DNA from: Stylophora pistillata
Taxonomy: Eukaryota
Assembly: GCF_002571385.2 (NCBI RefSeq)
Contig: NW_019218372.1
Location: 89,728 to 153,727, forward strand
Direction: 5' to 3'
Length of the DNA stretch: 64,000 nt
Shown one piece after another: positions 1 to 5,700 of this stretch (positions are counted from its first letter, which is position 1; each line of letters begins with the position of its first letter). The position numbers are program-made.

Positions 1-2696
1 CTTTTAAGGGAGTTTTTACACAGGGATAACCTCTTAACTTCCTTTTCTAGAAGTATTTTCTTTTTAGTTTTATTTGTATATAATAGTTATCATCTGCTTC
101 TGGAATAAATAAAGTATGTATGTATGTATGTATGTAATTCGCCTGAGATTGTTCATTGACTTTTAGAATCGAGAAGTCGGGTTTGTGATTGACCTATAAT
201 GCTTTGTTTTCCTTTCTCCAACAAGTGTTTACTTTTCTACCACTATAAATTATAAAACAAGGCTTTGATGGTAATAAACCATCAAAACTTTATTATGATA
301 TACCCGTTTCTACATTAACACTTCTTTATTTTTGTATTTAGGCTGATAGAAAGATCTTACTGTAAAAGGGAACAAGGCATGACTGACATGCACAAGGAGA
401 TAATTAATTGTCAAAAAGAAGCTATCGTGAAAGATCTCGAGGTGACAAAAATACTTAAGAAGCTTATGACAAAGAGAATTTTTGATGAAAAAGATAAAAA
501 GGCGATAGAAAAGAAGACTAACGACCGTCTCAGGAGTAGCAAATTGCTGGATATACTACTTGATAAAGTTCCAGATCGATTCAGTGACTTTGTGGACATC
601 TTGTGTGACGGAACTCAAAAGTTTCTTGCCATCGGTCTCCTGAAAGAAGGTAAGTTATCTTATTGTCAGATAACAGTAGTAACTGCGCCTAGAAGGACTG
701 TTTTTGATTGAGATTTTTCTTTCATGAGAATCTCATTTTACTCAATTTACAGTACTTACAAGCACATACTTTTTCCAGAGAGCAAAGAATACCAAAAGGA
801 GAAAGACGCATTATGGTCGTTCTTGAATGAGATGGCTGAAGCAAGAAAGGAAATTTATGAAAGAAAATATGAGCTAGAGCTGGAATTAAAGGGTGCTCAT
901 GAAAAGATAGGTAAATGCACAACAAGTTTATTGTAGAAAAAGACCCGTAAGACATAATCTGGCTGGTATATTGCTTGGTATATTGTTTGTAGATATATAT
1001 ATTTATAACCAACTGCAGACAGTACCGTTTCGGCCTTCTGGGCCTTATCAGTGCAGTGCTGATGCTAGGATGGGGTAGAACCCATATGGTTACTCCGAAC
1101 GATCCCACATTTGTGGTATCGTCTAAGCCATGCCAGAGTGCTCAAACTAGGGAAGCCTAGTAAGCTATACTTGGGAGGTTTGCTAAGCACTCTAAGCACT
1201 CAAGAAGTTAGAGTCGCTCTCGGCTATCGCCTCGAGCGACTCTTACGCTTCTTTCGTGCTTAGCAACCTCCCGCGTGCATCCATATCTCAATAGTGTACG
1301 CTGTGGTGTTTACCATTTGTTAAATGGTGTCACGTAATTTATCGGCTATCGTCGAAACATAGGAGTTAAAATAATTAGCCATTTCCAAAGGGTCTTCCAC
1401 GTCATGTCCGTCAATTTTGTAACCAATTTTGCAGCCAAGATTGCACAAGAATCGCCTTATTCTGCTTAGCGACTGGTCTTCAAACGAACAATAAACTTTT
1501 CAAGTTGACCAATCAGATGTAACGTTAATTTAATTGCCTCATTCTGACTGCCCATTTGACACATGCGGGTTTTCTTTCTTCTGAGCTATTTCTTGACTGC
1601 TGTGATTACTCTGAGATTAGTTACCAAAGACTCTATCGAAATACGTATTGTTTCTTAAAAAAATAACTTCGGTGTCGTTTTTAATCTACAGGAGCACCTT
1701 TGAGGAGTATTTCTGTTCAAACCATTCACAGAATAAACGCCTCTGACTCGGGGTTCACTTTAGGAGAACAGCCGACTTTTTTAAAGTTCAAAGGCCCAAC
1801 TTTGAAACTAGAACACGACTTTATACAAATCAATGCTGAGTTCTCCAACGGAATGATTCAAAAGGATTTTCATGCACAAGTTGTCCCGAAGCAAGAGGTA
1901 TTGCAACGAACTGCTTCCCAGAGAACTGGTTTACCCTTCAATGTCATAATCTTGGCGTTAGATCAGACATCACAGGCAACTTTCCAACGTCTCCTACCAG
2001 AATCGTTCAAGTTTCTTCGCGATGAGCTCCAATCGTTTATTTTCGAGGGATTTTCTCTCGTGGGAGAGGCGACCACACCCCAACTCACAGCGCTATTAAC
2101 TGGGAAGACTGTGGAGGAGAACTGTAAATTACACGAAGCACGAATTGGATTCGACAACGCTAAGTCTTTAGACGAGTGGCCCTTCATTTTCAACACCTTC
2201 AAGGAGCATGGGTATGCTACAATGTTTAGCGAAGATGCACCATCAATTGGTAAGGCGTCTTTATCTTTTCACAACTTTTTGTGATTAATTAAATTTCAAA
2301 CAAATGAGTGGCAGCAGGAAGATATGGCTCACTTTCAATCCTTAACTTCAGCCGATTGATAGAGAGGTTCAGAAATGTCTACTTGGGTCAAATAATCTAG
2401 AATCGATCTCCCTAAAAGTCCAAAGGGTTCCTGGTTCCTGTTCGAGATAACTCAGGGTTGCTATTAAACGGGATTTGATCACTAGATCTTAAAAACCATT
2501 CTCGAACTATCAGTGTCAACAAAATCTACTCTACATTGATTAAAGAATTTTCTGAATGCTCGGATATTTTCCCCAAAATTTCCCCTTCCCATTCAGTCAA
2601 GAAGTACACCGTATTCTACAGAAATCCACAATTAATATAATCTCTTATCAATATATAGATCTTATTTGACGTTTTATTGTGTAGTATCACTGAGTG

Positions 2697-2729
<33 letters not shown>

Positions 2730-5700
2730 GTAGGGCGAGTCAAAATACAAATAACTAGTAAAAATACTCAGCGATACTACACAACAAAACGTCTAATAAG
2801 TTATTTATTATCCAACACGCCAAACTGTTATTTCAGTGCGGGCGAATTTCGTGGATATTGATTTACGGGGAGTGCGTGACAGAAGTATGCGAAGCGGAAA
2901 GGAATTGGCGATAAATGAAGAAATTTCCAAGTGGTCTAGCTGTTTTTCTTCGTTGTATTCATCTAACAAACTTGGATGTATATTTGCCAACCATTCTGAC
3001 TCTTCGTCGTCGGAAATATGATTCAAATTGTCTGCCATTTCTTTTTCGTAACTACAATTCAACTCTTCGCTTGCACGATGCGAGAAAACCTGTTTAACCG
3101 GTACTCTAGTGTACAAATACCGCGTGATATTTGTACTCATGTATGGCGTTACTTATACTCTAGGAAGTGTACTTGGATAATAAATTCTGATATGATACAC
3201 TTTGCCTTTCAGCAACTTTTAACATGAGACTCAAAGGTTTCAACAAACCACCCGCGGATCACTACGCGCGGCCCTTTTGGTCAGCGGTGCCGCACAACTC
3301 TGACAGTGGACTTCATGCCTTCTGTATCAATGCACAACCACAGCACATTATTCAGCTTGAATACCTGAAAAGCCTGTTTAGAGCTTATCCCGGGACACTC
3401 AAGTTTGGATTCACTTTCGTGAGCAGTTTGTGCCATCATGAATCAATCATGCCACTTGGATCAGCTGCTAAAGACTTTTTAAAATTTTTTCAAGCCATCC
3501 GCGATTCTGGATCTTTGAATGATACGTTTTTTGTTGTCATGGGAGACCACGGGGCGAGAACGGGGGAGTTCCGCTCCACAATTCAGGGTAAACTGGAGGA
3601 GCGTTTGCCGCTCCTATCCATTGCACTTCCTTCTAAATTCCATTTTAAGTATCCAGAACTTGTGAAGAATCTCAAGCATAATACAAAAGTCATTACCTCA
3701 CCTTTAGATCTACACGCAACCTTTATGCACTTATTGAAATACCCTGCCGACCCATCGAATTCTGATCTTACCCGAGGGACAAGCCTCTTTTCAGCGATCC
3801 CTCGGAATCGATCCTGCCAAGATGCTATGATTCCCGAGTATTTCTGCCCATGTGTCCAGTGGTTGCCTCTCAATACTACTCATGCGCACATTCGCATAAG
3901 TGCAATGCGCGCCGTCGACTTCATAAATAATTTACTTACGGAGGTTGGTCATCTTTGCGAGGAGCTATCAGTGAATGACATTATAAGTGCATGGCAGGAA
4001 ATGTCCAGCATTAAAGTACAAACTTTTGATGGCATTGAGAACGGGATGGGTTTAGGATTTGGTAAAGCAAACTTTGAATCCACATCGATGCCCAATGAAT
4101 GCACCTATCAGCTTAGATTTCGAACAAAGCCTGGTTACGGAGAATTCGAGACATCGGTTAAAATTATCGACGGGAAATTTATAGTGAGCGAACACATCAG
4201 CCGTATTAATATTTATGGTTCCCAGCCTAACTGCATCAAGGCTTCACACCCGCATCTTAGAAAATATTGTTACTGCAGCCACCAGGGCTGAAAGCTTGTC
4301 TACCTGCAGGTAACAATTGTAGTTTATGTTTAACAAGCTTCTCACTACGTATGATACACGATCCTCGCAGTAGAGAGCGCTATTTATGCAATAGCGAAAA
4401 TCAAACCTGAAAAAAATCAGGCCTGTATGGGATTCGAACCACTGACCTCTGCGATACTAGTGCAGCGCTCTACCAATTGAGCTAACAAGCCAACTGGGAG
4501 CAGGCCGTTAAGTTGATTCGTAATAAACCCGTGAAAGTGATAAATGAGTAGAGCGCTGCACTAGTATCGCAGAGGTCAGTGGTTCGAGTCCCGTACAGGC
4601 CTGATTTTTTTCAGGTCTGATTTTCGCTATTGCTTAAATAGCGCTATCTACTGCGAGGATCGTGCATCATACGTATCAAATACCGCAGTTCAAAATATAT
4701 GATTTTCATATATTTATTCTATCTCATTTATCACTTTCACGGGTTCATTACGAATCAACTTAACGGCCTGCTCTCAGTTGGCTTGTTAGCTCAATTGGTA
4801 AGAGCGCTGCACTAGTATCGCAGAGGTCAGTGGTTCGAGTCCCGTACAGGCCTGATTTTTTTCAGGTCTGATTTTCGCTATTGCTTAAATAGCGCTATCT
4901 ACTGCGAGGATCGTGCATCATACGTATCAAATACCGCAGTTCAAAATATATGATTTTCATATATTTATTCTATCTCATTTATCACTTTCACGGGTTCATT
5001 ACGAATCAACTTAACGGCCTGCTCTCAGTTGGCTTGTTAGCTCAATTGGTAAGAGCGCTGCACTAGTATCGCAGAGGTCAGTGGTTCGAGTCCCGTACAG
5101 GCCTGATTTTTTTCAGGTCTGATTTTCGCTATTGCTTAAATAGCGCTATCTACTGCGAGGATCGTGCATCATACGTATGAACATCATTCCTTTGGCACAG
5201 TAAGAGACGTTTCAATTTTAAAGTAGACTAATAAACGAGAGGCCAAGTCTCAGTTTGAAGGTTAATTAAGACTAATGAGAAATCACTTCTAGGAGGAAAC
5301 TCGCCACTTTTCAGTATGAGCTTTTGTTTTGATGTATTGTTCACATGCATTTTCCACACTTATTTAAACAGATTTAATGGAAGTCGGTAATTTTCAAATT
5401 CAATAATATGTCACAATAATAGCTAAGCATTGATTGTATTACCACTATCAATCCCCCAATATTTGGATGGAACACCTGCAATGAAAACTATGTGACGTAC
5501 TAAAAAAAAACCCCTTAACTCAATGTCCATCACCCATTCAGTAGGAAACTGCCCTTCTAGCTAAGTACCTTCCTCGAAGTAATTTCTCCGTGGCGCTGAA
5601 AGTTTTCTGGGTTTATCTGCCATTAGCCACAGGTAAGGAAGATCTCTCTTTTTTATTGGTCAACATGACTTAATTTTTTCCTTTTTTCCATCGCCAATCT

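What the first reader, a model, noticed from the sequence alone, without database searches (positions are those of the whole stretch)
342..4291. CARD-coiled-coil fused in frame to a DUF229 phosphoesterase-like enzyme: candidate new death-fold effector
Seen: four exons joined by three phase-1 GT-AG introns give an uninterrupted 679-aa ORF (CARD, ~44-aa coiled coil, full DUF229). No signal peptide or TM segment is visible. Putative AlkP-superfamily metal/nucleophile positions are retained (LD, T of GEATT, CHH, GDHG). Known: DUF229 proteins are usually N-terminally anchored secretory-pathway proteins, whereas CARDs nucleate cytosolic signalling filaments, and phase-1 shuffling of death folds is common in cnidarian immune genes. 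Inference: the membrane-anchor exon was replaced by a CARD, producing a cytosolic, oligomerisation-recruited phosphoesterase/transferase. I know no characterised example. Caveat: the retained C-terminal Cys clusters look like luminal disulfides.
Basis: partly seen in the sequence, partly recalled or inferred. Interest (0 to 1): 0.8.

Follow-up and report, generated by a model that had tools for sequence, protein, structure and literature searches.

The report
CARD exons inserted into DUF229 gene
In a coral genome, a freshly copied pair of CARD and coiled-coil exons sits inside an intron of a membrane-anchored enzyme gene, so the neat CARD-enzyme reading frame is probably a by-product of that insertion, not a proven new immune effector.

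Summary
The four ORF segments, three GT-AG phase-1 junctions and 679-codon frame are in the sequence as described. E1 is a CARD. E3 and E4 are DUF229.

Database proteins change the reading. The window lies on the 180,964-bp Stylophora pistillata scaffold that carries LOC111342815. That RefSeq protein (377 aa) begins with 222 residues not encoded in the window; residues 29-217 match the stem of anchored DUF229 orthologues. It then reads E1 and E2 and runs on into intron 2 to TAG 934-936.

E1 and E2 are identical in protein to two internal exons of another gene, LOC111339610 (CARD, coiled coil, discoidin-like). That architecture recurs in Montipora.

So the anchor and stem were not replaced. A copied CARD exon pair landed in the DUF229 phase-1 intron. 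The only new junction, E2 to E3, is in frame with a chance of 1 in 3.

No database protein seen combines CARD with DUF229. The 679-aa model also lacks a conserved N-terminal block with two cysteines.

The fusion isoform is possible but unshown. No transcript data were available.

The parts
342..649 (+). E1: CARD exon. It is an internal exon (acceptor AG 340-341, donor GT 650-651). ATG 379 is the start used by isoform X2 of the parent gene.
   Evidence: Pfam CARD 1.3e-9, 38.4 bits. AF2 pLDDT 93.6, TM 0.91 to 1cy5. 100% identical to P0040 and P0212. Residues encoded by 342-378 are read in P0085 and P0212.
779..910 (+). E2: coiled-coil exon, the native partner of E1 in the CARD gene family. Its donor is phase 1.
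   Evidence: Identical to P0040 and P0212. 50% identity over 32 residues with the same position in P0048. No Pfam family.
911..936 (+). Run-on from E2 into intron 2, ending at TAG 934-936. This is the C-terminal tail of the annotated 377-aa protein.
   Evidence: The last 8 residues of P0212 are encoded here exactly.
1192..1325 (.). Short interspersed repeat inside intron 2, between the inserted exons and E3.
   Evidence: 97.7% and 82% copies at 34007-34199.
1692..2249 (+). E3: first DUF229 exon in the window. It holds the conserved Asp and the Thr at the nucleophile position.
   Evidence: Pfam DUF229 9.2e-28, profile 78-225. 73% identical to P0001 residues 333-516. 12 of 12 conserved columns kept.
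3213..4291 (+). E4: last DUF229 exon, with stop TGA 4289-4291.
   Evidence: Pfam DUF229 2.4e-68, profile 228-495. 75% identical to P0001 residues 519-876. 44 of 44 conserved columns kept. Root-to-tip distance is within the family range.
17828..18345 (+). Decayed partial copy of the 3' part of E4 (pseudogene fragment), part of a tandem segmental duplication.
   Evidence: 84-85% nucleotide identity to 3619-3953 and 4169-4346, with an internal deletion.

Best explanation
The window begins inside Stylophora pistillata gene LOC111342815. This gene is the species' copy of an N-terminally anchored, secretory-pathway DUF229 enzyme. DUF229 belongs to the alkaline-phosphatase superfamily, has an LtaS/EptA/sulfatase-like fold, and carries a conserved Thr at the nucleophile position. 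E3 and E4 are its catalytic exons. Its stem exons lie upstream of the window.

E1 and E2 are not an ancestral part of this gene. They are a copy, identical in all 147 codons compared, of two internal exons of LOC111339610, a CARD, coiled-coil, discoidin-like gene on another scaffold. The copy has landed on the same strand in the phase-1 intron just before E3. E2's native donor and E3's native acceptor are both phase 1, so an open 679-codon frame arises. That has a 1 in 3 chance and needs no selection.

What the sequence and models show:
- Splicing the ancestral phase-1 donor to the E1 acceptor meets TGA at 344-346 at once.
- The annotated product reads stem, five extra residues, E1, E2, then runs on to TAG 934-936 (377 aa, no catalytic exons).

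What is inferred:
- The five extra residues reflect a donor 16 nt downstream that restores the CARD frame.
- The ancestral enzyme can still be made only by skipping E1 and E2.
- The insertion is so recent that the intact state of E3 and E4 says nothing about its present use.

The CARD-DUF229 fusion is a possible minor isoform, not an established protein.
For: - Locus identity: the window's 642-aa Kelch ORF is in the collection exactly, on a 180,964-bp contig. P0212 (LOC111342815) and the S. pistillata Dicer model sit on a contig of the same length.
- P0212 residues 223-377 map without a mismatch to window 340-933. Residues 1-222 are not in the window.
- P0212 residues 29-217 are 54% identical to Oculina P0001 residues 145-332, ending exactly where E3 homology begins at 333.
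- Parent gene: P0040 residues 1-134 equal E1 plus E2. Residues 135-484 are found nowhere in the 64 kb. Isoform X1 (P0085) reads 342-378 as coding.
- The native context of E1 and E2 recurs in the unnamed P0048 (41% identity over 191 residues, including the upstream exon). It also recurs in Montipora P0075, which has a CARD plus a discoidin-like C-terminus.
- Orthologues from Oculina, the Montipora cluster and Nematostella carry DUF229 without a CARD. Eight of 8 homologues tested have an N-terminal hydrophobic anchor.
- CARD with PF02995 was found in 0 of 39 proteins, 0 of 120 listed of 159 and 0 of 2. It was also absent in 0 of 22 scanned out of 43 CARD relatives; the other 21 are under 175 aa.
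- The fold of orthologue P0001 matches LtaP/LtaS, S1 sulfatases, YejM/PbgA and EptC/EptA.
Against: - No transcript or read data could be examined. I could not see the evidence behind the RefSeq model, which may be partly ab initio.
- The E2 donor (tag|GTAAAT) and the E3 acceptor (a pyrimidine-rich tract ending CAG) look usable and lie only 781 nt apart. Splicing of E2 to E3 is therefore mechanistically plausible.
- E3 and E4 are fully intact (56 of 56 conserved columns) and show no rate acceleration. This also fits a fusion in use.
- P0212 itself has no hydrophobic anchor, so whether this gene still encodes one is unknown.
- The genomic DNA of LOC111339610 was not available. The ends, nucleotide divergence and direction of the copy are therefore inferred from proteins only.
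- The absence of an annotated protein containing E4 is hedged. The closest cluster (P0092, 89% identity) has 268 members, of which only 40 were read.
Confidence: 0.7

Rival explanations
1. A transcript starts just upstream of E1, translation starts at ATG 379, and E2 splices to E3. The result is a cytosolic 679-aa CARD, coiled-coil, DUF229 protein recruited into CARD assemblies.
For: The frame is open and the splice sites look usable. The parent gene has an isoform (X2, P0040) that starts at the same Met. E3 and E4 keep 56 of 56 conserved columns. The CARD fold is confident.
Against: - E1 is used as an internal exon in 3 of the 4 database proteins that contain it (P0083, P0085, P0212).
- No protein seen combines CARD and PF02995.
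- The model lacks the conserved upstream block with two near-invariant Cys and an invariant Pro. In the P0001 model, strands 316-319 and 322-325 precede the boundary at 332/333 and strand 333-345 follows it.
- Eight conserved Cys remain in E4, and every structural relative is an extracytoplasmic domain.
- Phase agreement alone has a 1 in 3 chance.
Confidence: 0.08
2. A longer chimera. Transcription starts at the DUF229 promoter, the alternative donor is used, and E2 splices to E3. The product is stem, CARD, coiled coil and DUF229 catalytic domain, made in the secretory pathway if an anchor exon exists.
For: P0212 shows stem joined to E1 and E2 in frame. E2 to E3 keeps the frame. The catalytic exons are intact.
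Against: The annotated model ends in intron 2 instead. No protein of 628-2000 aa in the collection is more than 75% identical to E4. A CARD in the lumen has no known partner (established knowledge of CARD signalling, recalled). Inserting about 150 residues into the beta-rich subdomain at P0001 residues 316-345 would probably disturb it (inference).
Confidence: 0.1
3. Assembly artefact. The CARD exons were placed in the DUF229 intron by wrong joins through repeats in a short-read assembly, and the RefSeq model followed the artefact.
For: The inserted exons are identical in protein to a locus on another scaffold. A young interspersed repeat lies between E2 and E3 at 1192-1325.
Against: Window 1-23610 has no N. 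Two separate misjoins would be needed, one on each side. No repeat was found in 1-1191.
Confidence: 0.06

Closest known systems
Stylophora pistillata LOC111339610 (XP_022802029.1 / XP_022802030.1) and Montipora capricornis XP_068752676.1: CARD, coiled coil, discoidin-like (F5/8 type C) proteins
   Same: E1 and E2 are identical in protein to two exons of LOC111339610. The CARD and the C-terminal domain are shared with the Montipora protein at 35-36% identity.
   Different: At the window locus the exons that follow E2 in that gene (acidic linker, discoidin-like domain) are absent from all 64 kb. DUF229 exons follow instead.
Anchored DUF229 proteins: Oculina patagonica LOC144634923 (P0001), the Montipora cluster of P0002, Nematostella LOC116609570 (P0003)
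   Same: E3 and E4 are colinear with them at 73-75%, 64-67% and 52-56% identity. The stem in P0212 is 54% identical to P0001.
   Different: These have an N-terminal hydrophobic anchor and no CARD. The window locus has a CARD and coiled-coil exon pair inside the intron before the catalytic exons.
LtaS/LtaP, EptA/EptC, YejM/PbgA and S1 sulfatases (alkaline-phosphatase superfamily)
   Same: Fold of the orthologue's model: Foldseek E 2e-8 to 1e-6, probability 1.00. There is a weak Pfam Sulfatase match in E4. Thr sits at a conserved position, as in LtaS and EptA (the assignment as nucleophile is recalled, not tested).
   Different: Sequence identity is 11-17%. Sequence search finds no solved relative. 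Substrate and reaction are unknown.
Chimeric genes born by partial duplication or insertion into an intron (for example TRIM5-CypA in primates or jingwei in Drosophila; recalled, no call)
   Same: A copied coding segment lands in another gene's intron in a compatible phase and can be spliced in.
   Different: Here no transcript or function of the chimera has been shown. The annotated product is a truncation.

Membership tests
CARD (Pfam PF00619, death-fold superfamily) | Profile match above the curated cut-off | tested here: met
   E1 alone: 38.4 bits against 23.9, profile 2-79 of 85.
CARD (Pfam PF00619, death-fold superfamily) | Compact antiparallel helical bundle of the death fold | tested here: met
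   AF2 model pLDDT 93.6, helices 3-11/13-19, 22-31, 37-44, 49-62, 68-77, 81-89. TM 0.91-0.92, rmsd 1.2-1.4 to Apaf-1 CARD. Foldseek E is only about 1e-3.
CARD (Pfam PF00619, death-fold superfamily) | Homotypic CARD-CARD assembly | not tested
   No complex prediction or assay was run.
DUF229 (Pfam PF02995) | Profile match above the curated cut-off | tested here: met
   E3 97.6 bits, E4 231.5 bits, cut-off 25.
DUF229 (Pfam PF02995) | Whole conserved domain present in the 679-aa model | tested here: not met
   Only profile positions 78-495 of 496 are matched. Three conserved columns (C, P, C) lie upstream of E3 and outside the window. The stem of P0212 gave no PF02995 match at E up to 1, so placing profile 1-77 in the stem is an inference from colinearity.
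DUF229 (Pfam PF02995) | N-terminal signal anchor or secretory targeting | tested here: not met
   Eight of 8 homologues have a hydrophobic window in the first 40 or so residues. E1 to E4 and P0212 have none. C. elegans DUF229 is listed among large secreted families (PMC3534327, one passage seen).
DUF229 (Pfam PF02995) | Family-conserved residues kept | tested here: met
   56 of 56 conserved columns that fall in E3 and E4 are kept.
Alkaline-phosphatase superfamily | Core alpha/beta fold | tested here: met
   Tested on orthologue P0001, not on the window's own joined model: 338 PDB matches at E up to 0.001, topped by LtaP/LtaS, sulfatases, YejM and EptC.
Alkaline-phosphatase superfamily | Metal ligands and nucleophile | tested here: inconclusive
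   The conserved Asp and Thr in E3 and the His and Asp-His in E4 are kept. Their roles are assigned by recall, not by a superposition.
CARD-coiled-coil adaptors (CARD9 / CARMA type) | CARD followed by a long coiled coil that oligomerises and recruits BCL10 | tested here: inconclusive
   CARMA1 CARD is only rank 16 in the fold search (TM 0.85). BCL10 is the top sequence hit at E 0.026. E2 encodes only 44 residues. I do not file it under this family.

The most novel reading that the evidence does not exclude
A death-fold exon shuffle caught almost at birth. A CARD and coiled-coil exon pair, still identical in protein to its parent, sits in a phase-compatible intron of a DUF229 enzyme gene. In some tissue or stress state it is spliced on to the catalytic exons. 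That would give a CARD-bearing alkaline-phosphatase-superfamily enzyme, an architecture found in none of the database proteins examined here.
Probability: 0.15. Interest if true: 0.7.

Novelty: new member of a known kind. Interest (0 to 1): 0.3.

Why it matters
- As a check on the scan: an open frame across phase-compatible exons is weak evidence for a domain fusion. Here the same DNA is better explained by a copied exon pair nested in another gene's intron.
- For coral genomics: the locus is a concrete, datable case of exon copying that involves an immune-type death fold. It also disrupts, or at least complicates, a conserved secretory enzyme gene.
- If the chimeric isoform were expressed, the first steps of domain shuffling could be tested in a living population.
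- The DUF229 family itself is still without a known reaction. The fold match to LtaS/EptA-type enzymes gives a starting hypothesis.

Tried and rejected
- The joined four-exon protein was never built, searched or folded. All searches were exon by exon, so nothing here tests the fused chain as one protein.
- Sequence searches of the PDB with E4, E3 and E1 gave nothing significant. The best were sulfatase at E 0.33, nothing for E3, and BCL10 at E 0.026 for E1.
- The paper search for 'DUF229' by word start mostly hit DUF229x phage-defence families. The whole-word search gave 8 papers, 7 listed, none on function. I saw one passage each of two of them.
- No paper holds the two LOC or XP identifiers. 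No paper holds both 'caspase recruitment domain' and 'alkaline phosphatase superfamily'.
- Searches on S. pistillata with CARD, and on exon shuffling with death domain, gave listings only. Nothing on this locus appeared.
- I looked in the window for the odd 4-residue C-terminus of the authors' model P0083. It is absent.
- I looked in the window for the rest of P0040, P0084 and P0075, and for the N-terminal parts of P0001-P0005. Apart from the decayed E4 fragment at about 17.8 kb, they are absent.
- An exact look-up of the E4 ORF from its first ATG found it is not in the collection.
- Longer unnamed relatives of E4 (P0235, P0242, P0095) turned out to be genomic ORFs read through introns, not transcripts.
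- Downstream continuation of a CARD-coiled-coil gene was rejected. The next genes are GPCRs, a Kelch gene and Dicer.
- Not done: complex prediction, ESM Atlas search and the genome-contig scan (bacteria and archaea only, so not relevant).
The contigs behind the unnamed E4 relatives could therefore not be inspected to see whether they carry the same insertion.
- Supplements were not consulted.
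Full report
**What is in the sequence**

I read window 1-4800 and listed its frames.
- E1 is 379-649, with GT at 650.
- E2 is 779-910.
- E3 is 1692-2249.
- E4 is 3213-4291, ending in TGA.
- All introns are GT..AG and phase 1, giving 2040 nt, or 679 codons.

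Nothing below tests the fused chain as one protein.

Pfam results:
- E1 matches CARD (38.4 bits, cut-off 23.9).
- E2 matches nothing.
- E3 matches DUF229 profile positions 78-225.
- E4 matches DUF229 profile positions 228-495 of 496.

An AlphaFold model of E1, built with 24 relatives, is confident (pLDDT 93.6). It superposes on Apaf-1 CARD at TM 0.91.

**Which junctions are real**

- E3/E4 is confirmed by homology. E3 aligns to Oculina patagonica LOC144634923 (P0001) residues 333-516 and E4 to residues 519-876, at 73% and 75% identity. No gap occurs at the junction.
- E1/E2 is confirmed by exact identity with two RefSeq proteins.
- E2/E3 has no such support. It rests on equal phase, which has a 1 in 3 chance, and on good-looking splice sites 781 nt apart.

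**Where the window comes from**

The 642-aa BTB-Kelch ORF at 39088-41016 is in the protein collection letter for letter, on a contig of 180,964 bp. A Stylophora pistillata Dicer model sits on a contig of the same length. S. pistillata LOC111342815 (P0212, XP_022805670.1) is also on a contig of that length. I take the window to be part of that scaffold.

**The decisive proteins**

A full-library search with E1 found 43 relatives. One, P0040, is 100% identical. P0040 is S. pistillata LOC111339610 isoform X2 (484 aa, on a 293,053-bp scaffold).
- Its first 134 residues are exactly E1 plus E2.
- It then continues into an acidic linker and a discoidin-like (F5/8 type C) domain.
- Those later residues are encoded nowhere in the 64 kb.
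- Isoform X1 (P0085, 651 aa) has 167 more N-terminal residues. The last 13 of them are the in-frame reading of window 342-378. AG 340-341 is therefore a used acceptor, and E1 is an internal exon.

The same order of upstream exon, CARD and coiled coil is seen in an unnamed 496-aa protein, P0048 (41% identity over 191 residues). CARD plus a discoidin-like domain recurs in Montipora capricornis XP_068752676.1 (P0075). E1 and E2 therefore belong natively to that gene family.

**The second exact match is the window's own locus**

P0212 (LOC111342815, 377 aa) matches window 340-933 without a mismatch over its residues 223-377. That stretch is the 13 residues before the ATG, E1, E2, and then eight residues read straight on into intron 2 up to TAG 934-936.

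Its residues 1-222 are not in the window. Residues 29-217 are 54% identical to P0001 residues 145-332, the stem of the anchored DUF229 orthologue. That homology ends exactly where the homology of E3 starts, at residue 333.

So the DUF229 gene's own 5' exons are still present, upstream of the window. The CARD and coiled-coil pair lies between them and the catalytic exons.

**Frames**

- E1 (from 342) plus E2 is 440 nt, which is not a multiple of three.
- If the ancestral phase-1 donor is spliced to 342, the frame hits TGA at 344-346 at once.
- P0212 carries five extra residues between the stem and E1. I infer a donor 16 nt further on that restores the CARD frame. That DNA is outside the window, so this is inference.
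- E2's native donor is phase 1, because in LOC111339610 the next residue starts with its last G. E3's native acceptor is also phase 1. The long open frame therefore follows without any need for selection.

**Is the DUF229 part whole and alive?**

Against 39 homologues, 59 columns are conserved in at least 92% of them.
- Twelve fall in E3 and 44 in E4, and the window keeps all 56.
- The other three (Cys, Pro, Cys) lie upstream of E3. They are C284, P287 and C308 of P0001 in a 37-sequence alignment.

In the AlphaFold model of P0001 (pLDDT 75.7), residues 281-340 are modelled at block means of 76-87. Strands 316-319 and 322-325 lie just before the exon boundary, and strand 333-345 lies just after it. 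The 679-aa model is therefore not a full DUF229. It would lack a structured, conserved N-terminal piece.

The root-to-tip distance of E4 in a tree of 17 sequences is 1.727. The other 15 non-root tips range from 1.547 to 1.829, so there is no sign of decay. But the inserted exons show no amino-acid change in 147 codons against their parent. The event may be too recent for decay to show (inference).

**What DUF229 works like**

- Eight of 8 homologues tested have an N-terminal hydrophobic segment. The exon pieces and P0212 have none.
- C. elegans DUF229 is tabulated among large secreted families (PMC3534327, one passage seen).
- Sequence search finds no solved relative.
- The P0001 model matches extracytoplasmic alkaline-phosphatase-superfamily domains: LtaP/LtaS, S1 sulfatases, YejM/PbgA and EptC/EptA (E 2e-8 to 1e-6, 11-17% identity).
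- With a conserved Thr rather than a Cys/Ser-x-Pro-x-Arg motif, it most resembles the LtaS/EptA type of metal-dependent phospho-transfer enzyme. That assignment is recalled, not tested.
- Eight conserved Cys in E4 fit a luminal protein.

**Is there any CARD-DUF229 protein?**

- None of 39 longer relatives of E4 carries a CARD.
- None of the 120 listed of 159 near-length relatives does.
- Neither of the 2 longer proteins found with E1 carries PF02995.
- None of the 22 representatives of 190 aa or more out of the 43 CARD relatives carries PF02995. The other 21 are under 175 aa.
- No protein of 196-2000 aa is more than 89% identical to E4.

So no cluster representative is an S. pistillata protein containing E3 and E4. 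This is hedged, because only 40 of the 268 members of the closest cluster were read.

**Verdict**

The interpretation that a CARD replaced the anchor to make a cytosolic effector is not supported.

The best reading is a very recent insertion of a copied CARD and coiled-coil exon pair into the phase-1 intron of an anchored DUF229 gene. The only annotated product is a stem, CARD, coiled-coil truncation.

A chimera with the catalytic exons remains possible. I put it at about 0.15-0.2 in either form. A misassembly is less likely, at about 0.06.

The following stayed unchecked:
- RNA evidence;
- the parent's genomic DNA;

Papers: no paper in the library holds the two gene identifiers or links CARD with this superfamily. 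Supplements were not consulted.

Noticed in passing
window 4346-5181; also 13777-14008, 47012-47298, 57473-57696, 45544-45660: A repeat family headed by a tRNA-Thr(AGT)-like sequence. Three copies, one inverted, lie just after the E4 stop, and more are scattered through the window. It looks like a tRNA-derived SINE, not a set of true tRNA genes.
   Followed up: partly
window 17828-18345 and 18655-20280 (against 3619-4346 and 5178-6500): A tandem segmental duplication of the 3' end of E4 plus spacer, at 80-85% nucleotide identity. The second E4 copy has an internal deletion and frameshifts, so it is a pseudogene fragment.
   Followed up: partly
window 6760-7266, 16666-16941, 17178-17744; 8162-12673: The exons of a rhodopsin-type GPCR are split by about 9 kb that holds reverse-transcriptase and integrase ORFs, which suggests a retroelement in an intron. 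A second GPCR copy lies at 20951-22718.
   Followed up: no
window 39088-41016 and 43081-51279: A single-exon BTB-BACK-Kelch gene lies next to Dicer exons. The authors' 2314-aa 'Dicer' model (PFX15972.1) falls in the same 90% cluster as the 642-aa Kelch protein, so that model probably fuses the two genes.
   Followed up: partly
window 2653-2808: A 156-nt palindromic (self-inverted) repeat lies in intron 3. It looks like a MITE.
   Followed up: no
window 1192-1325 and 34007-34199: A young short repeat (97.7% identity) in intron 2 has an inverted pair 33 kb away. It lies between the inserted CARD exons and E3.
   Followed up: no
window 23611-23671: A run of 61 N. It was left untouched.
   Followed up: no
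window 13214-13534 (-) and 26628-27368 (+): Two ORFs of interest: one with a HECT C-terminal match just below the Pfam cut-off (23.0 against 23.9 bits), and one with a CBX-family C-terminal motif.
   Followed up: no
S. pistillata LOC111339610 (P0083, P0084, P0085; not in the window): The authors' annotation splits this gene into a 305-aa CARD protein and a 374-aa 'HECTD1' protein. RefSeq joins them as one gene with two isoforms.
   Followed up: partly
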